In this document: positions 1 to 41,050 of the stretch, in pieces
Layout: each line of letters opens with the position of its first letter
Numbering within the stretch: position 1 is the first letter of the stretch
DNA from: Escherichia phage TR3
Sequence record: PP069512
Length of the DNA: 44,747 bases
Reading direction: 5' to 3' (one strand)
Position numbers and translations under genes: made by a program
Notes under the pieces: generated by a model
What the model saw: the letters and a program-made list of their open reading frames with translations, nothing else
The model's database searches: none
What the model was told of the DNA's origin: nothing

Positions 1-1
1 A

Positions 2-322
2 GCTTCCGCTCGCCGTGTAATGCAGCGCCTTGTTGATAATACAACCCTGAGCTATGGCGAGTTGTTTACTCGTAACAACCCAGGTGTAACCCTGCGCTTT
101 ATGCAGGTCCTGGATAACTACGATGGTGCTGGCGGTAAAGCTGCGCTGGCGTTTGAAAAGGATCCGCTCAACATGAGCATCGAGATTCCGGAAGTTACAA
201 ACGTTTTACCTGGTCAGCCTCGTGATCTTCACTTCCGCTTCCCTGTAACCTCTAAGGCGACAGGTTTGATTTTATATCGCCCTCTTACAGTGGCAGCTAT
301 CAAAGGAATTACCTTTGCCTAA
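2..322 (+). CDS. major capsid protein, C-terminal segment (5' part lies at 44125..44747 if the genome is circular)
   Basis: Frame open from base 2 to TAA 320-322; leftover nt at window end (2) plus base 1 make one codon, so it joins in frame with the ORF starting at 44125; followed by a hairpin terminator. Confidence 0.55.
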   Translation, partial: ASARRVMQRLVDNTTLSYGELFTRNNPGVTLRFMQVLDNYDGAGGKAALAFEKDPLNMSIEIPEVTNVLPGQPRDLHFRFPVTSKATGLILYRPLTVAAIKGITFA

Positions 323-342
323 TAGCACTAAATGACAAAACA

Positions 343-368
343 ATACCACCGAAAGGTGGTATTTTTGT
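343..368 (+). terminator. intrinsic terminator after capsid gene
   Basis: Hairpin ATACCACC-GAAA-GGTGGTAT followed by TTTTTG. Confidence 0.6.
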
Positions 369-393
369 TTCCATCAAAACAATGGAGGCGAAA

Positions 394-990
394 ATGAAAA
401 TTGAAGAACTACTAACTCACGAAGAGCTAACATCAAGACTTGAATCAGATTCTGAAAGTCCCGTTATGACATGGAAAGTAAAGCCGGGAAATGATAGGTT
501 TACAAATGTATGGAATTCAAGGTACGCCGGAAAGGTTGCTGGAGGTGAATTCACTCCAAACCCAACATGCCCAGAAAGTAAGATGTGGAAGCTATGTATT
601 AAAGTTTCCGGGAAGAAGTTTCACGTTTCAATGCATAAGTTAAAGTGGTTTTATCATCACAGGAGTTGGCCGACAGGTGAGATAGATCACATTGATGGTA
701 ACTCATTAAACAATAGGGTGGAAAACCTAAGGGTTGTTACTCGAAGTGAGAACATGATGAATACGAGCCTATACAAAAGGAACAAGAGTGGATTTAAAGG
801 TGTTAGCTACGATAAATCAAGGGTGAAGTGGAAAGCCCAGATACAAAAGGATTGCGGAGATGTAAGGATGGCTAAAAGGTTTGACACAATTGAAGAGGCT
901 AAGGAGTGTTACGACAGTTGGTGTAAAGAAATATTCGGCGAGTACGGAAACGCCAATGGGGTTCACGAAGGCGATTGTTTAGTGCTATAA
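394..990 (+). CDS. HNH homing endonuclease with AP2-like DNA-binding domain
   Basis: HNH motif HIDGNSLNNRVENLRVVTRSEN; AP2-like segment SGFKGVSYDKSRVKWKAQI; RBS GGAGG 5 nt before ATG 394 (track ORF starts at 382, no RBS). Confidence 0.85.
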   Translation: MKIEELLTHEELTSRLESDSESPVMTWKVKPGNDRFTNVWNSRYAGKVAGGEFTPNPTCPESKMWKLCIKVSGKKFHVSMHKLKWFYHHRSWPTGEIDHIDGNSLNNRVENLRVVTRSENMMNTSLYKRNKSGFKGVSYDKSRVKWKAQIQKDCGDVRMAKRFDTIEEAKECYDSWCKEIFGEYGNANGVHEGDCLVL

Positions 991-1020
991 TCAATCATCA
1001 ATTAATAAAAGGAGCAAGTA

Positions 1021-1266
1021 ATGATTAAGTTAGAACACACTGGCGCGTGCATGATTGTTTATAAAGGTGCTAAATACTTACCTGGCGACACAATTGAAGC
1101 AAGTGAGCTTTGTGATGGACTGAAACGCCTGATTGCTGAAGGTAAACTCACCATTGAAGGTGACTACAAGGCAACTAAAGAAGTGGCGCAAGAAATCAAC
1201 AGTCAGAAAAAACGCAAAGAACCAAAGACCATCTCTGAAGCCGAGACTGGCAACGAGTACAAATAA
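1021..1266 (+). CDS. hypothetical protein (81 aa)
   Basis: RBS AAGGAG before ATG; followed by terminator. Confidence 0.6.
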   Translation: MIKLEHTGACMIVYKGAKYLPGDTIEASELCDGLKRLIAEGKLTIEGDYKATKEVAQEINSQKKRKEPKTISEAETGNEYK

Positions 1267-1272
1267 CAAAAT

Positions 1273-1296
1273 GGGCGCTTCGGCGTCCGTTTTTGT
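1273..1296 (+). terminator. intrinsic terminator
   Basis: GGGCGC-TTCG-GCGTCC hairpin (one G-U pair) then TTTTTGT. Confidence 0.55.
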
Positions 1297-1307
1297 ATGG
1301 AGGTAAT

Positions 1308-1703
1308 ATGAACGAACAAGCATTAGCATTCATGAGGTCATTAGTTCCTGCCCTTAAGAATGTTTCTGATGAAACACTTGACGTATGGCTTGAGCTAGCC
1401 AAGCTTTACATCTGTACCAGTAAGTTTGGTGATGATGCTTACAAGGCACTGGCACTGTACACTATGCACATTGCCTTTCTTGATGGTGCACTTAAGCAGA
1501 ATGAGTCTTTGGATGATTACGGTAAGAAGGTGGCAAGTTACTCACTGAGTGGTGAGTTCTCTATCAGCTATGAATCAACGTCTCAATCACAATCAGCACT
1601 GACTTCCACCCCGTGGGGTCGTCTGTACTGGAACCTTCTGCGTAAGAAAGGTGGTGGCTTTGGATTGGTTACGTCCGGTGGGCGTGGGTGCGGTTGCCGA
1701 TGA
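1308..1703 (+). CDS. putative head-tail connector protein
   Basis: ATG 1308 with RBS GGAGG (track start 1293 lacks RBS); first of four translationally coupled genes between capsid and major tail protein. Confidence 0.55.
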   Translation: MNEQALAFMRSLVPALKNVSDETLDVWLELAKLYICTSKFGDDAYKALALYTMHIAFLDGALKQNESLDDYGKKVASYSLSGEFSISYESTSQSQSALTSTPWGRLYWNLLRKKGGGFGLVTSGGRGCGCR

Positions 1704-2071
1704 ATTACTCTCAAATCGAATCATTAATGCGAACGGGAATCAATATCTTTAGTGATGGCGATGGTACGTTTACCATGGAAACTGGTAAAGGTGGGGTGGA
1801 GATTGTCGATGGTGTCGAGGTTCCTGTATCTGGCGGCACTGCATTAATCAAGGGGCTGGTGAGGGAGATTAAAACCAGAGATATTGATGGTGAGTATATT
1901 CAGTTTGGCGATAAGCGTGGAATCTTCACTTCCGAAGTCCCAATCTTACAGGGCTACAGGATTATTGTGGACGATGAAACTTACACTGTAGTCGACCCGA
2001 GACCAGTGAAACCAACAGGTACTGTAGTCGCATACAGGCCAATTCTGAGGAGGATTGCTGCTTATGGCTAA
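1700..2071 (+). CDS. putative head-tail joining protein
   Basis: ATG 1700 overlaps upstream stop (ATGA); track start at 1688 is GTG. Confidence 0.55.
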   Translation: MNYSQIESLMRTGINIFSDGDGTFTMETGKGGVEIVDGVEVPVSGGTALIKGLVREIKTRDIDGEYIQFGDKRGIFTSEVPILQGYRIIVDDETYTVVDPRPVKPTGTVVAYRPILRRIAAYG

Positions 2072-2501
2072 TAATGTTGGTGGCTTAGCTACATTCACGA
2101 ACTCTATCAATGACTGGATTTCAAGAGCTGATGATGGTTTTTCTGAAATTGTTTCAGGCACTGTAATTAAAGCAGCTAACGCCATTGTTGATTTATCTCC
2201 TGTTGATACTGGTAGGTTTAAGGCTAACTGGCAGATTACAGCAAACTCACCAGCAGTACAGTCGTTAAATGATTACGACAAGACTGGCGGTGATACAAAA
2301 AGGTACCTTGCAAGACAAGCCAGAGCAGTAGCTAACTCACCAGCAACAAAGGTTATCTACATAACCAACAGGCTAGATTATGCGTCAGATCTTGAATACG
2401 GTGCATCGCAGCAAGCGCCAGCAGGTGTACTTGGTGTAGTTAATATCAGACTTGGTCGATACTTTGAGGAAGCCGTTGCTGAAGCGAGGAGTAAACGATA
2501 A
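2064..2501 (+). CDS. putative neck / tail completion protein
   Basis: ATG 2064 preceded by RBS GAGGAGG; overlaps upstream stop. Confidence 0.55.
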   Translation: MANNVGGLATFTNSINDWISRADDGFSEIVSGTVIKAANAIVDLSPVDTGRFKANWQITANSPAVQSLNDYDKTGGDTKRYLARQARAVANSPATKVIYITNRLDYASDLEYGASQQAPAGVLGVVNIRLGRYFEEAVAEARSKR

Positions 2502-2899
2502 TGCAGTATGAGCTATCTTTAGCATCAAGGAGGTTTGTGACTGATTTGGTTAAAACGTTTCCAGTCAGGTATCCAATCTCCTACGAAAACGTAGCATTCT
2601 CTCCTCCAAGTAATGGCGGTATGTGGCTGAAGTACGACTACACTGAGGCCGATACCGTAACCTATAGCTTGAGTCGCAAGTGCAAATACTATGTCGGCAT
2701 GGTTCAGGTCTCTGTATTTTTCTCACCAGGTGATGGTGTTGATAGCGCAAGGAGGTTGGCGAATCAATTGGCAGAATCAATGCTTGATGGTACAATGCTT
2801 GACACAGGCTACATTTATGAGGGCGGAGTAGTTCACCCGGTAGTGAAGTCAAAATCTGGCTGGTTTATTCCAGTTCGTTTCTATGTTCGTCTTGACTAA
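2501..2899 (+). CDS. putative tail terminator / completion protein
   Basis: TAATG overlap with upstream gene; lies immediately before major tail protein gene. Confidence 0.55.
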   Translation: MQYELSLASRRFVTDLVKTFPVRYPISYENVAFSPPSNGGMWLKYDYTEADTVTYSLSRKCKYYVGMVQVSVFFSPGDGVDSARRLANQLAESMLDGTMLDTGYIYEGGVVHPVVKSKSGWFIPVRFYVRLD

Positions 2900-3600: not shown

Positions 3601-3644
3601 ATAGCACTTTTTGTTAAAGACGTGTGGCAGGGATTTGCTATTAT
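3601..3644 (+). promoter_or_regulatory. phage promoter box (ATAGCACTTT-TTGTTA, 22-bp spacer, TATTAT)
   Basis: Box at 3601-3616; -10-like TATTAT at 3639-3644; member of repeated motif family. Confidence 0.5.
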
Positions 3645-3683: not shown

Positions 3684-3824
3684 ATGATTTTAATTGGTAT
3701 GCTGACCGCTTTTTTCTATTATGCTACAGGTCTAACCTTTTGGGTATCATTAGGTGCAGCCATAGGCACTTACTTCGTATCTGCTGTGCTTGCTTTAATT
3801 GTGATAGCGCTGCGTAATCGCTAA
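3684..3824 (+). CDS. small membrane protein (46 aa, two hydrophobic segments)
   Basis: ATG 3684 with RBS GAGGT 8 nt upstream; hydrophobic composition; track ORF 3624 has no RBS. Confidence 0.45.
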   Translation: MILIGMLTAFFYYATGLTFWVSLGAAIGTYFVSAVLALIVIALRNR

Positions 3825-3842
3825 AACGAGAGAGAAAACAAA

Positions 3843-4091
3843 ATGAACAACGTTAAAAATATCATCAAACTTACTGCTGCTCTTGGTGCTTTCTACCTGG
3901 CAATTCAGATTGTCAACCCAACTGGTGGCGCAACCGCAAACTCTGATGCAATAAAGTATGAACATGAATTTAATAGTGCATATTCGCATTGTGAAAAAGT
4001 AGCTGGCGATAAGACAAACCAGATTCTGCACTATGGTCGCGAAGTGTGCACCGAAGTTGCTCACAACATTGTAAAAAACGAATCAAAGTAA
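3843..4091 (+). CDS. small protein with N-terminal signal-peptide-like segment (82 aa)
   Basis: Hydrophobic N-terminus LTAALGAFYLAIQIV; two Cys; sits in an insertion between major tail and chaperone genes. Confidence 0.5.
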   Translation: MNNVKNIIKLTAALGAFYLAIQIVNPTGGATANSDAIKYEHEFNSAYSHCEKVAGDKTNQILHYGREVCTEVAHNIVKNESK

Positions 4092-16810: not shown

Positions 16811-16839
16811 TATCGACAATTTCACCATAAATCACAGTT

Positions 16840-17001
16840 ACACGTAACCGATGTAACTCGATGTATACAATCTCATCCGCGGGAAATGATATACGCGCTG
16901 TTACGCCAATTTACGCATTGGTTACATTAAAATATCTATATATATCAACCTTTTACTCTTATTATTATTATTATATATATTACTGTGTATATCATGTAAC
17001 T
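16840..17001. repeat. non-coding control element, copy A (ACACGTAACCG box, GTTACGC repeats, (ATT)5(TA)4 microsatellite, TCATGTAACT)
   Basis: Paralogous to 34915..35070 with conserved spacing (152 vs 146 bp between the two anchor boxes). Confidence 0.6.
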
Positions 17002-18533: not shown

Positions 18534-19184
18534 ATGCAAATTTCAGAATTATGCAAATCAATTTTAAAAGCGCTTCACACTGCTAAATCGCTATTTGCGA
18601 AGGCTGAAAAGTCTAAGCAGAACTCTCACTTAAAGAATAAATACGCTACCTTAGAAGACGTTTTGGCGGCTGTTGAGCCTGGTTTATATGAGTGTGGTTT
18701 GGTGATGTTCCAGAGTGTGATTGATGACGAACAAACAAATCGCATGAAGGTCGAGACAAAGCTGTTTCATGTTGAATCTGGAGAGTGGGTAAGCTTCTTA
18801 ATGATAGTCCCAATCAGCAAGAATGATGCACAAGGTTACGGATCAGCTTTAACATACGCTCGTCGCTACGGTATCACAGCTGCCTTGGGTCTTAGCCAGG
18901 CTGATGATGACGGAAATCTTGCAGCCAAAGGCGTTAAGGATTTCAAGCGAGAGCTAGAGAAATGCAATACTCTTGATGAACTTCGTAACGTCTGGAAAGA
19001 GGCTAAGCAGTCACTTGATGCGGCTGGATGGAAGGTGTTTGAGCCTTACATTATCGAGCGAAAAGCAGAGATTGAGGCAAATGCAGCAACTGGCTTCAAC
19101 CCAGCAACACCAAAGAAAGTTGCAGAAAAAAGTAGTACTACTGAAAAGATTGAAGTAGAATCACAACAAATCGACACATTCTAA
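18534..19184 (+). CDS. ERF-family single-strand annealing protein
   Basis: Motif GSALTYARRYG typical of Erf family; RBS GAGGT. Confidence 0.8.
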   Translation: MQISELCKSILKALHTAKSLFAKAEKSKQNSHLKNKYATLEDVLAAVEPGLYECGLVMFQSVIDDEQTNRMKVETKLFHVESGEWVSFLMIVPISKNDAQGYGSALTYARRYGITAALGLSQADDDGNLAAKGVKDFKRELEKCNTLDELRNVWKEAKQSLDAAGWKVFEPYIIERKAEIEANAATGFNPATPKKVAEKSSTTEKIEVESQQIDTF

Positions 19185-31661: not shown

Positions 31662-33245
31662 TCACCCCAACAATCGCGGATTAATGTAAATCTTATCACC
31701 AATCAGGCATGTATAGTTTTTCTCATCAAGCATAGGAACCAAGTGGTCCTTGATGCGAGTCATTACGCCAGCCTGTCCTTCAAAAGGTTTAACTTTGCGT
31801 GCTGCTTCATACAGTGAGCGAACGCCAACAACACCCTTCCCATTCTTACCTTGCTTAATCAGGATATCAACCAGCTTATTCATTTCAGCATTATCACCAG
31901 CATGACCAGCAGCACTAGCGGACGACAAATAAGTCTTGCTTAACTCGTGGAAAATCATAACCGCTTCTTGCATTGTTTCAAGCTCAATCTCTCTTGATTT
32001 CTGCGGACTCGACCCTGCCGGTGCGAACCAGTTGCGAATAACGTGCAATACTGAGGCAATACGGATTGCTTGCTTATCAAATTTACCAAGAGCACCACGT
32101 AACATCGTGTGGGAATATTTACCGCCATCACCAAGATGCGGTTCCATTTCCTGGCGAGCTCGGTTAAGGTAGCGCATGGATGACGCACTTACTGTCAGTT
32201 TCACTTCAACTTCATTCATAATTTCATGAACGAGACGGAAATAGTCTGCTTTAAGACCATCATCAATAGCCTCGTATGTTGAATCGCCATTCTCATCAAC
32301 AAACACGCGGTCTCCAAGAAATGACTTTTCACGCACCAGAAGGAAACGCTCGGAAACACCAATACCACGCGCACCAGCATTCATAATCGCATTGATTGTT
32401 TCATCCTGAGCAATTACAGAGATGCACCCCATTGCCACGAAACTCATGTTGTTTTCTGCGTTAGCGCGGGCAATAGATACGTTACCAGCATCCCACGCTT
32501 TAAGTACAAGCTCGCTGTTCGTTTTCTTGGAACCATCACCGTATGTCATGCCCAATAATGAGTTGACGCTTGTTGCCTCATCCGAGATGACCGCAAAGTT
32601 ACCCTGGCGGTTGTTGATTCGTGCAAGACCTTCTGGCGTAGTATCTGAGACCGGGAATACGATATCGCACAGCTTCTCGAGCTTTTCCTCTAAATCTTCC
32701 TTCTCCTCAAACAGTGAAGCCATCTCAGATGGTGACTTCTCCTGTTTCATTTCTTTTGCTAGCGCAGACAGCTTAGCCATAATCTTTTTGCGGTCACGTT
32801 TACGCACCTCGTTCAAACGCTCAGTCTCAGCAATCATTGGCGCAATTGACAGAGAGTTAATGGCTGACTTACCAGTAGATGGCGGCTGGCTAGTTACCAC
32901 GTAAAGCGATGTTGGCTGCTGGGTTCCGTGATACTCAACAGTAAAGCGCCCTAGCATCGCAGCGGACACACAACCCAAAAAGTGCATGTATGCTGATGAC
33001 TCTGGGAACTGAACTGAGCGAGCAATATTTGCCGAGAGCTTACCAACAACATCAATGTCATTGCCTAGAGATATTACAGGGTACTTGTCATTACCTGCGT
33101 CAATCTCCATAGGTGTTTTCCAGAATGATTGAGACTGCCGATAGCCATTTGCATTAATGGCAACGCGAAGCGGTGGGAGGTTGTCGGTCGCGGCAATCGC
33201 CATAACTTGTTCAACAGATAGTTTATCTTCGTTGAAATCAAACAT
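31662..33245 (-). CDS. P-loop NTPase of unknown role (possible replication/helicase-like)
   Basis: Walker A-like SQPPSTGKSA; 527 aa; RBS GGAGAG; own promoter box. Confidence 0.55.
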   Translation of the reverse strand: MFDFNEDKLSVEQVMAIAATDNLPPLRVAINANGYRQSQSFWKTPMEIDAGNDKYPVISLGNDIDVVGKLSANIARSVQFPESSAYMHFLGCVSAAMLGRFTVEYHGTQQPTSLYVVTSQPPSTGKSAINSLSIAPMIAETERLNEVRKRDRKKIMAKLSALAKEMKQEKSPSEMASLFEEKEDLEEKLEKLCDIVFPVSDTTPEGLARINNRQGNFAVISDEATSVNSLLGMTYGDGSKKTNSELVLKAWDAGNVSIARANAENNMSFVAMGCISVIAQDETINAIMNAGARGIGVSERFLLVREKSFLGDRVFVDENGDSTYEAIDDGLKADYFRLVHEIMNEVEVKLTVSASSMRYLNRARQEMEPHLGDGGKYSHTMLRGALGKFDKQAIRIASVLHVIRNWFAPAGSSPQKSREIELETMQEAVMIFHELSKTYLSSASAAGHAGDNAEMNKLVDILIKQGKNGKGVVGVRSLYEAARKVKPFEGQAGVMTRIKDHLVPMLDEKNYTCLIGDKIYINPRLLG

Positions 33246-33275
33246 TACTTCTCTCCGTATTGTTTCTGAGCGGCC

Positions 33276-33323
33276 ATTATATCAACAGCCGCTTATAATG
33301 CATTATCAATTCGTGCTGCTATT
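33276..33323 (-). promoter_or_regulatory. phage promoter box (minus strand), 22-bp spacer, TATAAT
   Basis: rc of 33304-33322 = ATAGCAGCACGAATTGATA; -10 rc of 33276-33281; TAG of box is stop of upstream gene. Confidence 0.5.
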
Positions 33324-33672
33324 TGTAAGATGATTCAAATAGGTAAGTCTGGCAAAGAGTGTAGAAACCAACATCTTCGCTTCGATATAGCTGCCATGCA
33401 TTACCATCTTCGTCGTAAATGTAACCAGCAGACTGACCCATCCCGCTATGCATTAGCACCTGGTATCTCTTTCCTTCTTTGAAATACTTCTTAACGCCAG
33501 ATTTGTGGTTAACATGTGTCACGTAAAGCGTTCTGGTCTTAATGTATTTACCACGTTCTTCCAGATTAACCCATTTGCCATCTTTCTTGATTTGCTCGAC
33601 ACCATCTTTAACGCGAGCTTTAAACAGTTGGTTGTCTTTGCTAATGAAATTTTTAGTTATGGTAGTAGTCAT
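33319..33672 (-). CDS. hypothetical protein (117 aa)
   Basis: ORF; TAATG-coupled to upstream small ORF. Confidence 0.5.
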   Translation of the reverse strand: MTTTITKNFISKDNQLFKARVKDGVEQIKKDGKWVNLEERGKYIKTRTLYVTHVNHKSGVKKYFKEGKRYQVLMHSGMGQSAGYIYDEDGNAWQLYRSEDVGFYTLCQTYLFESSYK

Positions 33673-33836
33673 TATTCAGCCCTCTCTTTTGTAGTCCACA
33701 TGAATTTGTTTGGTACTGATTTGCGCACGATACGCACAACAATCTTATCAACTTTCTGAACTAAACCGTAAATCTTTCCATCAAGCGAGGCCCTGAAAAC
33801 TGCCTCTTCCATCGCGTCGTAAAAGTTGTCAAACAT
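33672..33836 (-). CDS. hypothetical small protein (54 aa)
   Basis: Not in track; MFDNFYDAMEEAVFRASLDGK...; weak RBS. Confidence 0.3.
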   Translation of the reverse strand: MFDNFYDAMEEAVFRASLDGKIYGLVQKVDKIVVRIVRKSVPNKFMWTTKERAE

Positions 33837-33868
33837 GATTACTTGTTCTCTTTCGTTTCGATGAGGAA

Positions 33869-33914
33869 ACTATACAACAAAAGCCCCGAAGGGCTTTAGC
33901 AATTCGTGCTATTT
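33869..33914 (-). promoter_or_regulatory. phage promoter box (minus strand), 22-bp spacer, TATAGT
   Basis: rc of 33895-33914 = AAATAGCACGAATTGCTAAA; spacer contains hairpin AAAGCCC-TTCG-GGGCTTT. Confidence 0.5.
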
Positions 33915-34057
33915 CTCGCCTTCTCAATCGCCTTAAGCATAATCTCGTGAGATTCAAGCAAGTCCTCGTTGAACCATTCCCCGCAAGGCCAGCCCTTGCC
34001 GCTGTAAGAACTAATAACTTCCAGATCAAAATAGTTAATCTCAGATGGTAATAGCAT
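33896..34057 (-). CDS. hypothetical small protein (53 aa, ends NSTNC inside promoter box)
   Basis: Not in track; TAATG-coupled to upstream gene; preferred over track ORF 33829..34029, which reads through the box and hairpin. Confidence 0.4.
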   Translation of the reverse strand: MLLPSEINYFDLEVISSYSGKGWPCGEWFNEDLLESHEIMLKAIEKARNSTNC

Positions 34058-34260
34058 TATTCAATCACCTTAAAAGTTGCGATTCCTGGGATGACGACGT
34101 AATCAAGGCATTTAAGAGCCTGAAACGTGTCGTGATGCTTATGTGGACGCTCTCCGGTAACAAGGCACATGTCATCTTTGAAATCGGTAGCGTTGTATTC
34201 AGAGCCCTTATTGAACGCGTCGTTAAAGTCTTTAATGATATTGGTGCAAAGTAGTTTCAT
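34057..34260 (-). CDS. hypothetical small protein (67 aa)
   Basis: RBS GAAGG; coupled. Confidence 0.45.
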   Translation of the reverse strand: MKLLCTNIIKDFNDAFNKGSEYNATDFKDDMCLVTGERPHKHHDTFQALKCLDYVVIPGIATFKVIE

Positions 34261-34261
34261 G

Positions 34262-34456
34262 CTAACCTTCTACTGTTTCAAAAATAAGCCTATTTTTAAT
34301 TGCTGCAATGACACGTCCATCATCAATGTAGCAGTAAACTGGTTTGAAGTTGTCACCAACTACGTAACCATAAATTTCATCATAAATGTAATGCTTTCCG
34401 TTTCTAAATTCCCAGGTTCCATCATTAAGATTATTTAAGCACTTAACTTTCATCAT
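34262..34456 (-). CDS. hypothetical small protein (64 aa)
   Basis: Start chosen at Met overlapping upstream stop (ATGA). Confidence 0.45.
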   Translation of the reverse strand: MMKVKCLNNLNDGTWEFRNGKHYIYDEIYGYVVGDNFKPVYCYIDDGRVIAAIKNRLIFETVEG

Positions 34457-34650
34457 CTCATTCCTTGCCAGGGTAAACATTCGTCACAGCCCAAGCCATC
34501 ACAACATAGATACTCATCATCTGACTGGAATTGCTTAGCGAGGTCAATATCAATCTTGCCGCGCAAAACCATATCGCTGTACATCTCGTTCAACCCAATC
34601 AGAGCGCATTCCTGCTTTAGCTGCTCATACGCTTCGTCTTTAAGTTTCAT
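34453..34650 (-). CDS. hypothetical small Cys-rich protein (65 aa)
   Basis: RBS AGGAGAGAG; motif CCDGLGCDEC. Confidence 0.5.
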   Translation of the reverse strand: MKLKDEAYEQLKQECALIGLNEMYSDMVLRGKIDIDLAKQFQSDDEYLCCDGLGCDECLPWQGMR

Positions 34651-34677
34651 ATCTCTCTCCTCGTTGTTGATGGATTC

Positions 34678-34722
34678 ATTATGGTCTCGTTACCAATGTT
34701 TGTCATTAGCAAAAAGTGCTAT
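34678..34722 (-). promoter_or_regulatory. phage promoter box, variant (minus strand), about 23-bp spacer
   Basis: rc of 34707-34722 = ATAGCACTTTTTGCTA; CATAAT-like -10. Confidence 0.4.
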
Positions 34723-34741
34723 TCGTTGGGTTTATGTATTA

Positions 34742-34832
34742 TTGCAGTTATTGCAATGATTCATCTCATTATTGCACATATAGCAATATTGCATCTGATG
34801 CAATGATTTTTTTGATTGTTGCAGAATTTGCA
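34742..34832. repeat. iteron-like array of 7-8 TTGCA boxes
   Basis: TTGCA at 34742, 34751, 34772, 34789, 34819, 34828 and TGCAA at 34799; pairs about 9-10 bp apart, pair-to-pair about 30 bp. Confidence 0.6.
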
Positions 34833-34914
34833 ATTATTGATGTGAGGGTGAATGAATGGTGGATGGACTACCATACAAGTTGATTTTTATTCTGGCCGAG
34901 CCATTTTGCCGCAT

Positions 34915-35070
34915 ACACGTAACCGGCGTAGCGCGATGTAAGCCAACCACTATCGTTACGCGAGTTACGCGAAGCTACGCCTAGACTTACACTATAAGTA
35001 CTTAATATATATATATATCTTCTTTCTATTATTATTATTATTATTATTATTATTGTATGTAAGTCATGTA
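34915..35070. repeat. non-coding control element, copy B (ACACGTAACCG box, GTTACGC repeats, (TA)7 and (ATT)8 microsatellites, TCATGTAACT)
   Basis: Paralogous to 16840..17001. Confidence 0.6.
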
Positions 35071-35324
35071 ACTGGTGCTCTTCTGCTATATATATGTTTT
35101 TTCCTATCAGAGTACATATCTGCAATTTTATGGAAGAAATAGCCAGTATTGGGCAACCCCACCCAATTTATGCGTTACAGGCGTTACCACAAACTACATT
35201 TAGCTATAGCTTGGCTAGGATGCCATTTCGCGTAACCACACCTAAAAGTTACCAAAAATTACACTTGATTACGTGTGTAAGTCGATATATGATGGATTCA
35301 ACCTAAACGAGAGGAGTGATAAAC

Positions 35325-35804
35325 ATGAATGAGAAAGCAACATTGGGTCAAGTGATTCGCGAGATGGTAAAACAGGCTCTAAAATCTGAAGATAAGCAAT
35401 TCAGCGTTTCACTAAGGAAAATTGAAAGCATTATTGGCAGTGAAGATGGTTCCATTAAGAAGCTTAAGAGCTCATACATCTACAACACAACAGCTCGCAT
35501 GCCTGAGTTGAGAGACGCAGGTATGAAGGCGACTCACTACTATGATGAAGATAGCGGCAAAAGCCAATTCGGCGTGACAGAGCTATCAGATGGCAAGAGG
35601 CTGGTTATCAAACTGATCCCTGGAACTGCCAACATTGGTATCAGGAAGAAGACCAATGACGCAATCAAGGTGGAGGCAATAACTGAATTCAAGGCTAAGA
35701 TATCGAAAGTCATGCCAGACCTATCGGAGTATGAAGGTGAAGCGCTCGCAGCAGCAATGAAAGCAATTAAAGATTATCGTTTGATTATTGAGGAGATTAA
35801 ATAA
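35325..35804 (+). CDS. hypothetical protein (159 aa)
   Basis: ATG 35325 with RBS GAGGAG (track start 35316 is GTG). Confidence 0.55.
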   Translation: MNEKATLGQVIREMVKQALKSEDKQFSVSLRKIESIIGSEDGSIKKLKSSYIYNTTARMPELRDAGMKATHYYDEDSGKSQFGVTELSDGKRLVIKLIPGTANIGIRKKTNDAIKVEAITEFKAKISKVMPDLSEYEGEALAAAMKAIKDYRLIIEEIK

Positions 35805-35845
35805 TGTTTAACTTTAACGATGACAAACTAACAGCATAGCAGGTA

Positions 35846-36328
35846 ATGAATATCGCCAGGCAAGATGGACTTTCGCCAGTCAGAATCGTAATAAATGCAA
35901 ATGGGTATCGTCAGTCAACGCCATTCTGGGGTTCGATTGATACGTCAGATGTGTACTCAGGTGATGAGCTTGGTGTGCTAATTAAAATCATCAGGAAGAT
36001 GGGAGTTAACGGGAAAGGAGTGGTTGGTGTCAGGTCTGTATATGAAGGAGCTCGAAAGGTTAAGCCTTTTGTTGGGCGTAATGGAGTGATGTTGCTCATC
36101 AAGGACAAGCTAATCCCAGAGCTCGACAAGATGAATGTTACATGTCTAATTGGCGATAAGGTTTATGTTCACCCCGCAATACTCAATGAGTGTTGGGAGC
36201 CTAACTTCAAGGTCTACGAAGGTAAGCATCCTAGTAGACTACCATACCACTTGCGGTACAGCGAGGAAGAGGTTGAGGCGGCGATGGAGTTTTATCGGGA
36301 AGCTAAATTACTCCTGAATGGACAATAG
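35846..36328 (+). CDS. truncated paralog of the P-loop NTPase (N- and C-terminal regions only; amber-interrupted leader at 35804..35839)
   Basis: Residues VINANGYRQS and GKGVVGVRS..KVKPF..CLIGDK match ends of the 31662..33245 protein; upstream in-frame MFNFNDDKLTA-TAG matches that protein's N-terminus MFDFNEDKLSVE. Confidence 0.55.
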   Translation: MNIARQDGLSPVRIVINANGYRQSTPFWGSIDTSDVYSGDELGVLIKIIRKMGVNGKGVVGVRSVYEGARKVKPFVGRNGVMLLIKDKLIPELDKMNVTCLIGDKVYVHPAILNECWEPNFKVYEGKHPSRLPYHLRYSEEEVEAAMEFYREAKLLLNGQ

Positions 36329-36368
36329 CACGAATTGCTAAACAATCGCCGGAGAAATCCGGCATAAT
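36326..36368 (+). promoter_or_regulatory. phage promoter box (ATAGCACGAATTGCTA, 22-bp spacer, CATAAT)
   Basis: TAG of box is stop of upstream gene; spacer holds hairpin GCCGGA-GAAA-TCCGGC. Confidence 0.5.
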
Positions 36369-36399
36369 TACCACATCGACAACACGATGGAGTATAGAG

Positions 36400-36609
36400 A
36401 TGAGAATAAAGATTATTGAAGTTGACATTGCTGATGGTGACGAACTTAGCCTTGCTGATTGCGGTTTCCAGGTTGGTGATATTGTTGATGTTTCCGGTAA
36501 GTATAAAGATGGTAGCTTATCAGTTCAGGCGATTCGTGATACTGATTTAGTAACAATCGGCAACGAGATTAGTTTGCAAGAAGGCGAATACGAGGTAATT
36601 GAAGAATGA
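36400..36609 (+). CDS. hypothetical small highly acidic protein (69 aa)
   Basis: RBS GGAG; Asp/Glu-rich. Confidence 0.5.
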   Translation: MRIKIIEVDIADGDELSLADCGFQVGDIVDVSGKYKDGSLSVQAIRDTDLVTIGNEISLQEGEYEVIEE

Positions 36610-36795: not shown

Positions 36796-36930
36796 ATGCA
36801 CACGGAACTTATGATTGACGAGGTTTTAGTTGAGGCTTTACCATGGTTGTTGTGGTCTCTGGGCTTCGCGATTATTTACATTATTTCGGCAGCCGTAGAC
36901 GATGCTAAAACGCATTCTAACGAACTATAA
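36796..36930 (+). CDS. small membrane peptide (44 aa)
   Basis: Not in track; RBS AAGGAAA; hydrophobic core LPWLLWSLGFAIIYIISAAV. Confidence 0.4.
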   Translation: MHTELMIDEVLVEALPWLLWSLGFAIIYIISAAVDDAKTHSNEL

Positions 36931-38376: not shown

Positions 38377-38901
38377 ATGAAAGACGAAAACTTCACCAGC
38401 CAGGCGCAAGAAAAGATTCGCTCTGGCAACTTCAAAGCCATGTACAACAAAAAGTATTCTGACATTACAACTCTGTCCAAAAACCGAATAATGACCCCAG
38501 AGCAGCTATTCGACCTGGCCGTGAAATACTTCTCATGGGCTGAGAGCCAGGCAATCAAGGCAATTGAGACAGCCAGCTTCCAGGGTGTCGTAACCGAGAA
38601 TCTGGTGCACAAGCCACGAGTCTTCACACTAACAGGATTCTGCCTTTACTGCGGTGTTACCCATAGCGCAATAGAGAAATGGAGGAAGTCGGAGGGTTAT
38701 GACGAGGTAATTGCATTCATTGATTCCGTGATTCGCGAGCAGAAGTATCAGCTGGCAGCGTCTGGCATTGTTAACCCTGGCATGATTTCCAAAGAACTTG
38801 GCATCGATAAGCCGCAGGAGATTACTATAAGCAATAACTCTTCAGCTAACGACGTTGGCACGATGAAGGAAGCGCTGGAGTCTGTGATTAGTAAGCTGTA
38901 G
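38377..38901 (+). CDS. terminase small subunit (putative)
   Basis: 174 aa immediately upstream of HNH and terminase large subunit; RBS AAAGGAGG. Confidence 0.55.
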   Translation: MKDENFTSQAQEKIRSGNFKAMYNKKYSDITTLSKNRIMTPEQLFDLAVKYFSWAESQAIKAIETASFQGVVTENLVHKPRVFTLTGFCLYCGVTHSAIEKWRKSEGYDEVIAFIDSVIREQKYQLAASGIVNPGMISKELGIDKPQEITISNNSSANDVGTMKEALESVISKL

Positions 38902-39478: not shown

Positions 39479-41050
39479 ATGAGTGAATTAATAGTCTGGG
39501 ATGAACTGACTCACGCTGAAAAGATGGCTATAAAGGCAATCTCTGAGCATAGTTTCGAAGGGTTCTTGCGGTGCTTCTTTCAGATAACGCAAGGCGAGAG
39601 ATTCAAAATGAATTGGCATGCTAAATACCTTTGTCGTGTCATAGATGAGATTCTTGATGGTAAGAGAAAGGATACCATCATAAACGTAGCTCCTGGATCA
39701 GCCAAAACCGAGCTCTTTAGTATACATTTCCCTGTATATAGCATGATCAAGATTAAGAAGGTTAGAAATCTTAGTTTGTCGTTCTCTGACTCATTGGTTA
39801 AGCGTAACTCAAAGCGTGTGCGCGACCTGATTAAGTCAAAGGAGTTTCAGGAACTTTGGCCTTGCTCATTTGGGACTTGCAGGGATGATGAGATTCAGGT
39901 TCTAGATGAAGATGGAAAGGTGAGGTTTGAATCGATATCTAAGGCAATGGCTGGACAGGTGACTGGTTCGCGTGGTGGTTACATGACCGATGATTACAGT
40001 GGATGCATAATGCTTGATGACCCGCTGAAGCCAGATGATGCGCTTAGTAATGTAAGGAGGGAGGCTGTTAATATGCTTCTCAAGAACACAATTCGCTCAC
40101 GAAGGGCGAGTTCAGTTAAGGGAAAAGAGACTCCAATATTAGCCGTTCAGCAAAGGCTTCATGTTCTTGACACTAGTCACTTCATGGAGTCCGGGCAGAT
40201 GGGGATAAAATTCGACGTAGTTAAAATTCCAGCAATAGTCACGGAAGAATACGCCGACACGCTTCCTGAATGGATTAGGCAGCAGTTTATAGATGACGTT
40301 CTTTCTTCGCCATTTGTAGAGCGCGATGGGGTTAAGTATTACAGCTACTTCCCAGCAAAGGAATCAATAGAAGACTTGATAGCCATGCGTGATGCTGATC
40401 CTTACACATTCCTTAGTCAATATGCTCAGGAGCCTGTAGCTCTAGGTGGCAACCTGATTAACGTAGACTGGCTCCAGCGCATTAGTGACACCCTGCGACC
40501 GCCAGCTAAGTACGATTACAGGTTCATGACGCTTGATACCGCGATGACCACTAAAAGCTACAGTGACTTTAGTGTACTGCAACTCTGGGGCTATAAGGAT
40601 GGCAAGATTTACCTGTTAGACCAGCGACGTGGTAAATGGGAGGCGCCAGAGCTAGAGGCAGAGCTATTAGACTTCGAGAGGATGGCAAGGGCATCCAATC
40701 AGACAGATGGTATCCTTCGTAAAATCATCATCGAGAAGAAAGCATCTGGTATAGGTCTGATTCAATCAGCAGGAAGGGTTATGCGAACGCCTATCGAGCC
40801 ATACGTGCCAGATAACGACAAGCTGACTCGCGTAATGAGTGCACTTCCTCAGATTAAGGCTGGCAACGTTATCCTGCCGGAGTCAGCAAATTGGCTTAAC
40901 GGATTGCTAACAGAGATTGCAGCATTTACGGCAGATGATTCTCACTCGCACGATGACCAGATAGACTGTTTGACGATGGCTGTCAACCTGGTACTGAACA
41001 TCGCAGAAGACCCTAAAGCGAGAATGATGCGATTAGCAGGAATTAAATAA
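39479..41050 (+). CDS. terminase large subunit
   Basis: 523 aa; ATPase-type N-terminal region (VAPGSAKTE) and C-terminal nuclease-type region; position before portal. Confidence 0.8.
   Translation: MSELIVWDELTHAEKMAIKAISEHSFEGFLRCFFQITQGERFKMNWHAKYLCRVIDEILDGKRKDTIINVAPGSAKTELFSIHFPVYSMIKIKKVRNLSLSFSDSLVKRNSKRVRDLIKSKEFQELWPCSFGTCRDDEIQVLDEDGKVRFESISKAMAGQVTGSRGGYMTDDYSGCIMLDDPLKPDDALSNVRREAVNMLLKNTIRSRRASSVKGKETPILAVQQRLHVLDTSHFMESGQMGIKFDVVKIPAIVTEEYADTLPEWIRQQFIDDVLSSPFVERDGVKYYSYFPAKESIEDLIAMRDADPYTFLSQYAQEPVALGGNLINVDWLQRISDTLRPPAKYDYRFMTLDTAMTTKSYSDFSVLQLWGYKDGKIYLLDQRRGKWEAPELEAELLDFERMARASNQTDGILRKIIIEKKASGIGLIQSAGRVMRTPIEPYVPDNDKLTRVMSALPQIKAGNVILPESANWLNGLLTEIAAFTADDSHSHDDQIDCLTMAVNLVLNIAEDPKARMMRLAGIK

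What the first reader, a model, noticed from the sequence alone, without database searches (positions are those of the whole stretch)
34742..34832. Iteron-like array of TTGCA boxes beside control region B
Seven to eight TTGCA/TGCAA boxes fall within about 90 bp, arranged as pairs about one helical turn apart with about 30 bp between pairs. Several form the palindrome ATTGCAAT. The array lies directly upstream of the leftward promoter box at 34707-34722 and 80 bp from control region B, a layout typical of initiator or repressor binding arrays. No equivalent array is present beside copy A.
Basis: partly seen in the sequence, partly recalled or inferred. Interest (0 to 1): 0.6.

Follow-up and report, generated by a model that had tools for sequence, protein, structure and literature searches.

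The report
Palindrome array at phage pac site
The TTGCA boxes are really four 17-bp palindromes that sit about 30 bp from the point where this T1-like coliphage starts packaging its DNA, so they are most likely the landing pad for the packaging enzyme, not a replication origin or repressor array.

Summary
The window is Escherichia phage TR2 or a near-identical relative, a T1-like phage of the Drexlerviridae. The "TTGCA boxes" resolve into four 17-bp palindromes, ATTGCA-N5-TGCAAT, at 34741-57, 34771-87, 34788-804 and 34818-34. Their centres are 30, 17 and 30 bp apart. These are the only four matches with at most one mismatch in 44.7 kb. Across 15 relatives the half-sites are far better conserved than the central spacers, which is the signature of a sequence-specific, probably dimeric, DNA-binding protein.

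The function is probably not an origin or an operator. Published read-pileup (PhageTerm) termini for two relatives, TR1 and MSK, map to window 34863 and 34871, and the Rao1 GenBank record starts at 34863. That is 29-37 bp right of the last palindrome, and packaging runs rightward towards terS. The T1, Rtp and ESCO41 records start inside the array. TLS has the same layout with a different, equally unique palindrome pair.

Best reading (about 0.55): this is the recognition part of the headful pac site, read by the P22-gp3-type small terminase. The binding protein is inferred, not shown. The location of pac in this untranslated region was already known. The palindrome array as its recognition element appears not to have been described. 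Interest is moderate.

The parts
34741..34757 (.). O1: palindrome ATTGCAgttatTGCAAT (0 mismatches to ATTGCA-N5-TGCAAT)
   Evidence: The right half-site is invariant in 15 relatives.
34771..34787 (.). O2: palindrome ATTGCAcatatAGCAAT (1 mismatch). It abuts O3.
34788..34804 (.). O3: palindrome ATTGCAtctgaTGCAAT (0 mismatches). The T1 GenBank record starts at the first base of its O3 equivalent.
34805..34817 (.). Conserved 13-bp linker GATTTTTTTGATT containing a T7 tract, which may act as an intrinsic bend (inferred). O1 and O2 are separated by a linker of the same length (34758-34770).
   Evidence: 13 of the 26 linker columns are invariant.
34818..34834 (.). O4: palindrome gTTGCAgaattTGCAAT (1 mismatch). 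This is the most variable site in relatives (TTGCG...GTGAAAT/GAGCAAT).
34832..34867 (+). Tract with no C on the top strand, made of (G/A)TGA-like repeats (TTGATGTGAGGGTGAATGAATGGTGGATGGA), lying between the array and the cut. An analogous C-free tract spans the mapped pac end of TLS: 63 nt from record position 1, and about 85 nt counting across the record junction by reading the sequence.
34863..34887 (+). Cut block ATGGACTACCATACAAGTTGATTTT, the region of the packaging series-initiation cut. The TR1 PhageTerm site and the Rao1 record start map to 34863. The MSK PhageTerm site maps to 34871. Packaging proceeds rightward.
   Evidence: The 15-mer GGACTACCATACAAG is unique in the window.
34678..34728 (-). 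Context: leftward early promoter (ATGACA-17-CATAAT) with the family-wide ATAGCAC-N5-TGCTAA box, immediately left of the array.
   Evidence: The box is described for TLS, T1, Rtp and Rogue1 in PMC11447400.
38377..38901 (+). terS: small terminase of the P22 gp3 family. It is the inferred reader of the array and lies 3.5 kb downstream in the direction of packaging.
   Evidence: Pfam GP3_package, 1.7e-12. phrog_606. PDB 3P9A P22 gp3, 6.6e-15.

Best explanation
The array is the recognition half of the phage's headful-packaging initiation site (pac).

Proposed mechanism: on concatemeric DNA, the small terminase binds the four ATTGCA-N5-TGCAAT palindromes. This TerS is a P22-gp3-type ring oligomer encoded at 38377-38901. 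The two 13-bp linkers, one with a T7 tract, help the DNA bend or wrap. The bound complex positions the large terminase on the adjacent C-free tract and cut block. The first double-strand cut is made at about 34863-34871, 29-37 bp right of O4. The right-hand end is then threaded into the prohead and packaged rightward through the early genes and terS, by successive headfuls. The array itself stays on the non-encapsidated side of the first cut, like pacL of SPP1.

Shown by others' sequencing data: where the terminus is, and the packaging direction.
Shown here: the palindromic anatomy, its uniqueness in the genome, the selective conservation of half-sites, and the same architecture with other palindromes in T1 and TLS.
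Inferred: that TerS, rather than another protein, reads the sites, and the bending or wrapping step.
For: (1) Termini. The TR1 paper reports headful packaging with the site at TR1 position 3,615, and the GenBank record labels the overlapping ORF 'the initial packaging site'. That position maps without gaps to window 34863. The Rao1 record starts at the same base. MSK PhageTerm reports position 36,862, forward direction, p = 1.6e-9, which maps to window 34871.

(2) Record starts. T1 starts at the first base of its O3 equivalent and annotates 1..2800 as the terminal repeat. Rtp and OzMSK start 6 nt before O3. ESCO41 starts at O1. CEB_EC3a and ZL19 start 45-50 bp right of the cut.

(3) Uniqueness. 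All four genome-wide matches to the palindrome lie in these 94 bp. The duplicated control region at 16.8 kb lacks the array. A single copy is what a pac site requires.

(4) Constraint. 37 of 48 half-site columns are invariant in 15 phages, against 6 of 20 spacer columns (Fisher p = 6e-4) and 7 of 49 columns further right.

(5) Architecture is conserved while sequence changes.
- T1 keeps two TTGCA-N5-TGCAA sites 30 bp apart.
- TLS has two abutting AGACC-N4-GGTCT palindromes, the only two in its genome. They lie between the same promoter box and a C-free tract that contains its restriction-mapped pac end.

(6) TerS divergence tracks site type. TerS at 66-70% identity goes with the same array, T1 at 56-59% with half an array, and TLS at 51-54% with other palindromes. 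DUF3987 helicase identity does not track it: TLS at 72% has different sites and T1 at 58% has the same.

(7) The literature states that pac of T1-like phages lies in this left-end untranslated region but has not been defined at sequence level.
Against: No protein-binding data exist for any T1-like pac.

Palindromic half-sites 11 bp apart suggest a two-fold symmetric dimer. For subunits of a C9 ring one would expect repeats in the same orientation.

As recalled from the literature rather than tested here, the only characterised pac of a gp3-family TerS (P22) is a single asymmetric 22-bp site inside terS. In this phage the site is 3.5 kb upstream of terS.

Three TerS types only 66-70% identical to one another all pair with essentially the same array.

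The co-variation argument rests on three lineages.

The TR2 paper itself reports the PhageTerm site at 18,637. In GenBank coordinates that is a terminator hairpin between ssb and the recombinase gene. I could not reconcile this, and the coordinate frame is unknown.

How the Rao1 record start was chosen is not documented.
Confidence: 0.55

Rival explanations
1. Operator array for an unidentified dimeric phage DNA-binding protein. The protein would regulate the adjacent leftward early promoter (34706->34678), or switch the region from early transcription to packaging. Proximity to pac would be incidental, or the regulation would be coupled to packaging.
For: Each site is a classic 17-bp two-fold symmetric operator, with half-site centres one helical turn apart. 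O1 starts 13 bp upstream of the promoter box. Half-sites are more conserved than spacers. Several small proteins of unknown function and annotated 'regulators' are encoded in the genome.
Against: No promoter-like element lies inside the array or is occluded by it. The position relative to promoters is not conserved: in T1 the two sites lie about 80 bp from one leftward box and downstream of a second one. The family-wide promoter box occurs more than 10 times in the genome without any such array, and copy A, with the same promoter box, has none. No candidate regulator was found among the 10 neighbouring proteins scanned.
Confidence: 0.2
2. Origin of replication. The palindromes would be initiator sites bound by the DUF3987 helicase (31662-33245) through its C-terminal domain. 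The AT-rich (AT)n/(ATT)n tract of control region B would be the unwinding element.
For: A DUF3987-type helicase is encoded 1.5 kb to the left and is conserved in T1, Rtp and TLS. An AT-rich tract lies 170 bp to the right. No origin has been defined for any T1-like phage.
Against: The sites are inverted repeats, not direct repeats. There are no DnaA boxes. The AT-rich tract is duplicated at copy A, which has no array. Helicase similarity does not track site type: TLS at 72% has other palindromes and T1 at 58% has the same. The stand-alone paralog is missing from Rtp, T1 and TLS. GC skew follows transcription only. The physical DNA ends map here, which an origin does not explain.
Confidence: 0.12
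3. Binding sites for a host factor, most plausibly CytR-like recognition of TGCAA/TTGCAA half-sites, or a conserved element with no sequence-specific binder.
For: Published CytR motifs are TGCAA-N2-3-TTGCA, TTGCAA and GTTGCATT octamers with flexible spacing (PMC3454398). The O2/O3 junction, AGCAAtaTTGCA, fits the first form with one mismatch.
Against: No flanking CRP sites were seen on reading the sequence, although CytR needs them at physiological levels. The dominant arrangement here (TTGCA-N5-TGCAA) is the opposite orientation. TLS, which also infects E. coli, has unrelated palindromes at the same place. A strictly lytic phage has no evident use for a nucleoside regulator.
Confidence: 0.04

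Closest known systems
Bacillus phage SPP1 pac (pacL-pacC-pacR), bound by the small terminase G1P (recalled from the literature, not tested here)
   Same: Headful phage. Repeated TerS-binding boxes with intrinsically bent DNA lie on the non-encapsidated side (pacL) of a defined cleavage region (pacC). The site lies outside, or at the very start of, the terminase operon.
   Different: The SPP1 boxes are not 17-bp palindromes. A second binding region (pacR) lies on the packaged side, and nothing comparable was seen here to the right of the cut. The TerS family is different (here P22 gp3 type).
Phage P1 pac (seven TGATCA/G hexamers flanking the cut), recalled from the literature
   Same: A roughly 160-bp pac region built from multiple copies of a short palindromic motif, grouped in clusters and next to the cut.
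   Different: The P1 hexamers flank the cut on both sides and carry Dam sites that regulate cleavage. Here all sites are on one side and contain no GATC.
Phage lambda cosB (R3, R2, R1 sites plus IHF), read by gpNu1, recalled from the literature
   Same: Several roughly 16-bp small-terminase sites sit tens of bp from the cutting site. Two sites in inverted orientation are bound by a dimer of the TerS DNA-binding domain, with DNA bending between them.
   Different: Lambda is a cos phage with precise nicks. cosB lies on the packaged side of the cut, whereas this array lies on the other side.
Salmonella phage P22 pac and its TerS gp3
   Same: The TerS of this phage is a gp3 homologue (PDB 3P9A, E = 6.6e-15; Pfam GP3_package). 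Both phages use headful packaging.
   Different: As recalled from the literature, P22 pac is one asymmetric 22-bp sequence inside gene 3. Here the site would be four palindromes 3.5 kb upstream of terS.
Iteron-type origins (plasmid iterons, lambda ori)
   Same: Several phased copies of a roughly 17-20-bp protein-binding unit, near an AT-rich tract and near a helicase gene.
   Different: Iterons are direct repeats and these sites are inverted repeats. There are no DnaA boxes. The AT-rich tract also occurs without the array at copy A. DNA ends map here.

Membership tests
Headful packaging initiation (pac) site | The phage packages by the headful mechanism from concatemers | tested here: met
   The test used the literature and database records only. 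PhageTerm reports 'headful' for TR1, TR2 and MSK. The T1 record carries a 2.8-kb terminal repeat. TLS was mapped by restriction analysis.
Headful packaging initiation (pac) site | The physical end of the first packaged molecule maps at or next to the element | tested here: met
   TR1 position 3615 maps to window 34863, MSK position 36862 maps to 34871, and the Rao1 record starts at 34863. This is 29-37 bp from O4. The TR2 paper's own figure of 18,637 does not fit and remains unresolved.
Headful packaging initiation (pac) site | Present once per genome | tested here: met
   All four matches with at most 1 mismatch lie at 34741-34834. The cut-block 15-mer is unique. The array is absent beside copy A.
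Headful packaging initiation (pac) site | Specifically bound by the small terminase, and necessary and sufficient for initiation (for example, plasmid transduction) | not testable with these tools
   Needs EMSA or footprinting and packaging or transduction assays.
Iteron-type replication origin | Multiple direct (head-to-tail) repeats of one unit | tested here: not met
   The units are two-fold symmetric palindromes. The flanks show only partial direct-repeat character (ATTATTGCA...TGCAATGATT).
Iteron-type replication origin | Adjacent unwinding element and host-factor (DnaA/IHF) sites specific to the locus | tested here: not met
   No DnaA box lies near the region; the three in the window are at 3990, 22592 and 28309. 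The AT-rich tract at 35004-35054 is duplicated at 16931-16981, where there is no array.
Iteron-type replication origin | Replication initiates there, and the cognate initiator binds the repeats | not testable with these tools
   No origin mapping exists for T1-like phages.
Repressor/operator array | Sites overlap or flank the core promoter they control, at a conserved position | tested here: not met
   There is no promoter-like site within the array. The position relative to the promoter boxes differs between TR2 and T1.
Repressor/operator array | A cognate DNA-binding regulator is encoded and co-inherited | tested here: inconclusive
   None of the 10 neighbouring proteins scanned has a recognisable DNA-binding family. 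The genome has several unassigned small proteins.
CytR operator (host) | TGCAA/GTTGCATT half-sites placed between CRP sites | tested here: inconclusive
   The half-site resembles the published motif. No CRP-like sites were seen on reading. TLS has unrelated palindromes at the same place.

The most novel reading that the evidence does not exclude
Drexlerviridae carry interchangeable 'packaging-specificity cassettes'. Each would be a unique set of palindromes placed between the left-end promoter box and a C-free cut tract: TTGC-type in Braunvirinae, half of that set in T1, and AGACC-N4-GGTCT in TLS. The palindromes would be read either by the rapidly diverging TerS or by a separate, still unidentified dimeric specificity factor. 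Related co-infecting phages would then not package each other's DNA. This would also be the first case of a P22-gp3-family terminase recognising a multi-palindrome site far from its own gene.
Probability: 0.25. Interest if true: 0.6.

Novelty: new member of a known kind. Interest (0 to 1): 0.4.

Why it matters
T1-like phages are notorious laboratory and fermentation contaminants and are also generalised transducers. Their pac site has only ever been placed roughly, 'in the left-end untranslated region'. The only sequence proposals found in the papers searched are guesses: AGATTT by analogy with P22, and ATATA repeats.

A concrete, testable recognition element of four palindromes plus a cut block would have several uses:
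- Genome ends of Drexlerviridae could be set consistently in databases.
- Packaging could be engineered or blocked.
- Plasmids could be designed that these phages transduce efficiently.
- It would give a new substrate for studying how ring-shaped small terminases read DNA.

It does not reveal a new kind of system.

Tried and rejected
- **Array as overlapping sigma-70 promoters.** The consensus scan found none in 34729-34840, and my hand check of each TTGCAx as a -35 element found no conserved -10.
- **Known RNA.** Only a sub-threshold Rfam hit (ES003, 20 bits against a gathering score of 37, E = 0.25). The single-strand fold is not unusual (z = -1.8).
- **Coding sequence.** The ORFs annotated across the array in TR1 and TR2 are not conserved. 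Relatives differ by a 1-nt indel right after O4.
- **Presence/absence test of TerS against the DUF3987 helicase.** Both are present in T1, Rtp and TLS, so the test does not discriminate. Only the weaker identity-versus-site-type comparison was possible.
- **TerS-anchored loci from IMG/VR.** Most loci lacked the array because records are opened at pac or because the 8-kb flank was too short.
- **IMG/VR pattern scan for O3-O4.**
  - It returned Drexlerviridae, about 10 evident chance hits in coding DNA, and about 45 Guernseyvirinae. In SETP3 the element lies between ORF49 and ORF50 and overlaps the ORF50 ribosome-binding site.
  - These share no neighbouring proteins with TR2. I treat the resemblance as probably coincidental or unrelated.
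- **Search for satellites or chromosomal copies carrying the array.** There was no match in 5,426 complete E. coli genomes or in 72,556 plasmids, and only scattered chance hits in GTDB genomes.
- **GC skew for an origin.** It follows gene orientation only.
- **The TR2 paper's pac coordinate of 18,637.**
  - It could not be reconciled. In record coordinates it is a terminator hairpin.
  - That stretch is not even present in the window, which is 424 bp shorter than the TR2 record.
- **The Rtp genome paper (PMC1367250)** is not held. The T1 genome paper could not be consulted either.

Full report
**Identity of the window.** The region 33200-36400 is 100% identical to Escherichia phage TR2 (OP251154; Drexlerviridae, Braunvirinae, Christensenvirus), a T1-like virulent siphophage. 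The window is a circular permutation of the reverse complement of that record and is 424 bp shorter. The finding lies in a 665-bp non-coding region (34651-35315). To its left is a leftward block of small genes plus a DUF3987 helicase. To its right is a rightward block that runs through small genes and a tRNA into terS (38377-38901), an HNH gene, terL and the structural genes.

**Checking the observation.**
- TTGCA/TGCAA occurs 9 times (7 distinct boxes) in 34742-34833, against 145 hits in 44.7 kb.
- Apart from (AT)n/(ATT)n simple sequence, this is the densest cluster of any 5-mer in the window. In 200 Markov simulations the largest cluster was 6.
- Reading the sequence shows that the boxes are the arms of four 17-bp palindromes, ATTGCA-N5-TGCAAT: O1 34741-57, O2 34771-87, O3 34788-804 and O4 34818-34.
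- Their centres are 30, 17 and 30 bp apart, so the whole array is itself symmetric about 34787/8.
- A scan of the window finds exactly four matches with at most 1 mismatch, all of them these sites. Simulations give a mean of 0.3 and a maximum of 2.

**Conservation.**
- The element is found in at least 114 phage records, essentially all Drexlerviridae of E. coli and Shigella. In IMG/VR the O2|O3 pattern hits only contigs of 44-51 kb, the size of Drexlerviridae genomes.
- In an oriented alignment of 15 non-identical phages, 37 of 48 half-site columns are invariant. This compares with 6 of 20 columns in the N5 spacers (Fisher p = 6e-4), 13 of 26 in the two 13-bp linkers, and 7 of 49 in the sequence further right.
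- This pattern is what base-specific contacts to two half-sites one helical turn apart would produce.
- The conserved core is ATTGC/GCAAT.

**What the surroundings say.**
- The TR1 GenBank record labels the ORF lying over the array 'the initial packaging site of the headful packaging mechanism'. The TR1 paper gives the PhageTerm site as position 3,615 (PMC10450929). TR1 and TR2 align without gaps there, so this is window 34863.
- The Rao1 record, 99.8% identical over this region, starts at exactly that base.
- For phage MSK, PhageTerm reported headful packaging in the forward direction from position 36,862 of MW057918 (PMC8421802). In the sequence this is the C after GATGGATGGACTA, equivalent to window 34871.
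- Two published read-based estimates and one record start therefore fall within 8 bp of each other in a conserved block (ATGGACTACCATACAAGTTGATTTT), 29-37 bp right of O4. Packaging runs rightward towards terS.
- Older or homology-set records open in the same 170 bp:
  - T1 opens at the first base of its O3 equivalent, with 1..2800 annotated as the terminal repeat.
  - Rtp and OzMSK open 6 nt before O3.
  - ESCO41 opens at O1.
  - CEB_EC3a and ZL19 open about 45 bp right of the cut.
- The literature agrees that pac of T1-like phages lies in this left-end untranslated region but has not been defined. The SU57 paper says so explicitly. The TLS paper only guessed AGATTT by analogy with P22. ATATA repeats were proposed earlier.

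**Same architecture in other subfamilies.**
- T1 (Tunavirinae) keeps two sites, TTGCAtggtgTGCAA and TTGCTtagaaTGCAA, again 30 bp apart. They are followed by a G-rich tract and a hairpin that contains GACTACCA on the other strand.
- TLS (Tempevirinae) has two abutting copies of AGACCgattGGTCT at the homologous place, right after the same leftward promoter box. These are the only two matches in its genome.
- In TLS they are followed by a C-free GAT/TGA-rich tract: 63 nt from record position 1, and about 85 nt by my reading across the record junction. The authors' restriction-mapped pac end lies within it.
- The layout 'promoter box - unique palindromes - C-free tract with the end' is therefore a family feature, while the palindrome sequence is lineage-specific.

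**Who reads the sites?**
- TerS is a clear homologue of P22 gp3 (Pfam GP3_package; PDB 3P9A, E = 6.6e-15).
- Presence or absence does not discriminate, because both TerS and the DUF3987 helicase occur in T1, Rtp and TLS.
- Identity comparisons give a weak hint, from only three lineages:
  - TerS types 66-70% identical to TR2 go with the same array. T1 (56-59%) goes with half of it. TLS (51-54%) goes with different palindromes.
  - The helicase of TLS is 72% identical but its sites differ. That of T1 is 58% identical and its sites are the same.
- The sequence of the cut block does not follow TerS. Sd1 and phiEB49 have 95% identical TerS but different cut blocks, while the array is retained.
- The 'truncated paralog' (35846-36328) is a fusion of the N-terminal ~50 and C-terminal ~80 residues of the helicase. 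It is absent from Rtp, T1 and TLS, so it cannot be a general partner of the array.
- None of the 10 neighbouring proteins scanned matched a DNA-binding family.

**Interpretation.** The most economical reading is that the array is the recognition part of pac, with cutting about 30-40 bp away on the side that is packaged.
- It works like pacL/pacC of SPP1, the hexamer clusters of P1 pac, or cosB/cosN of lambda. These comparisons are from memory of the literature.
- It would be an unusual substrate for a gp3-family terminase. The P22 pac site, as I recall it, is a single asymmetric 22-mer inside the terS gene.
- The two-fold symmetry of each site fits a dimer better than a ring. This, and the lack of any binding data, is why I keep the confidence near 0.55.
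- It is also why I retain an operator model (0.2), an origin model (0.12) and a host-factor model (0.04). The half-site resembles published CytR motifs.

**Against the origin model specifically.** The sites are inverted repeats rather than direct ones. There are no DnaA boxes. The AT-rich tract is duplicated at copy A without an array. GC skew is uninformative.

**An unresolved conflict.** The TR2 paper gives the PhageTerm site as 18,637. In record coordinates that is a terminator hairpin between ssb and the recombinase gene, in a stretch that the window lacks. The coordinate frame used in the paper is unknown.

**Verdict.** The location of pac in this region is already known. The palindrome array as its recognition element appears not to have been described in the papers I could search. 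I file it as a new member of a known kind, of moderate interest.

Noticed in passing
window, + strand: 3600, 18460, 22265, 26300, 28632, 29850, 36324, 37241, 38889; - strand: 15566, 16791, 33894, 34704: A family of boxes, roughly 21-25 nt, of the form ATAGCAC-N5-TGCTAA(A). [quoted passage not shown] This is the 'promoter box' of the finding, and it matches the aaATAGCACnnnTTGnTAAAA repeat described for TLS, T1, Rtp and Rogue1 (PMC11447400). Its binder is unknown; it could be a UP element, an activator site or a 'stoperator'.
   Followed up: partly
window 16839-16981 (copy A) and 34914-35054 (copy B): Two homologous non-coding 'control regions' 18 kb apart. Each has several CGTAAC/GTTACGCG-type short repeats followed by (AT)n and (ATT)n tracts, and each lies at a point of divergent transcription. 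T1 and TLS have analogous regions with their own short repeats (GATTACG, CGATTAAC, CGTGAAC). These look more like an origin or unwinding element, or a bidirectional control region, than the TTGCA array does. They were not analysed.
   Followed up: no
window 35846-36328 (+) versus 31662-33245 (-): The 160-aa protein (phrog_7327) is a 'mini' paralog of the DUF3987 helicase. Its residues 1-52 match the helicase N-terminus and residues 37-113 match the helicase C-terminal ~80 aa, so the ATPase core is missing. It is absent from T1, Rtp and TLS. It could be a dominant-negative or regulatory fragment.
   Followed up: partly
L109 (phage TLS, NC_009540) 49792-49819, and 49880-49902 joined to 1-63: Two abutting copies of the palindrome AGACCGATTGGTCT, the only two in the TLS genome, lie at the position homologous to the TTGCA array. 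They are followed by a C-free tract that spans the record junction, where the authors mapped pac: 63 nt from position 1, about 85 nt by reading the sequence across the junction.
   Followed up: partly
L105 (Salmonella phage SETP3, NC_009232) 3781-3830, and about 45 IMG/VR Guernseyvirinae contigs (L045-L104): The sequence ATTGTTGCATCTCCTGCAA(T/C)AG-N8-GATTGTTGC-N6-TGAAATAG resembles O3-linker-O4 of Drexlerviridae, including a 7-nt match beyond the search pattern. It lies after a terminator hairpin and overlaps the ribosome-binding site and start of a leftward small gene. No neighbouring proteins are shared with TR2. It is probably coincidental, but this is not settled.
   Followed up: partly
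window 34863-34887 and homologous positions in L034, L036, L038, L007, L010: Downstream of the conserved array there are three alternative 'cut blocks': GACTACCATACAAGTTGATTTT in most phages, (T/C)ATCAACT(A/G)GTTGGTTGGTTTT in phiEB49, e4/1c and Sf12, and ...CGCCTGGTAG... in T1 and TH21. They do not co-vary with TerS: Sd1 and phiEB49 have 95% identical TerS but different blocks.
   Followed up: partly
window 38377-38901 (terS) versus 39479-41050 (terL): Between TR2 and Rtp, TerL is 94% and the DUF3987 helicase 92% identical, but TerS is only 67% identical. An HNH endonuclease gene sits between terS and terL. This suggests mosaic replacement or fast evolution of terS.
   Followed up: no
window 34716-34883 (+) and 34856-34984 (+): Small ORFs are annotated as hypothetical proteins across the array and the cut site in the TR1 and TR2 GenBank records. 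They are not conserved (there are frame-breaking indels in relatives) and are probably not genes.
   Followed up: partly
window 35325-35804 (+): The first rightward gene after pac encodes a DUF7174 protein. It is conserved at the same position in Rtp and TLS, and below Pfam's threshold in T1 (21 bits against 27). T1 also shows a similarly weak AcrF2-like match. As the first gene on the packaged end it might be an early anti-defence protein.
   Followed up: no
whole window versus OP251154 (L002): The window is not exactly the TR2 GenBank record. It is a permuted reverse complement that is 424 bp shorter, and TR2 18617-18657 (the ssb-recombinase intergenic terminator, where the TR2 paper places its PhageTerm site) is not found in the window.
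   Followed up: partly
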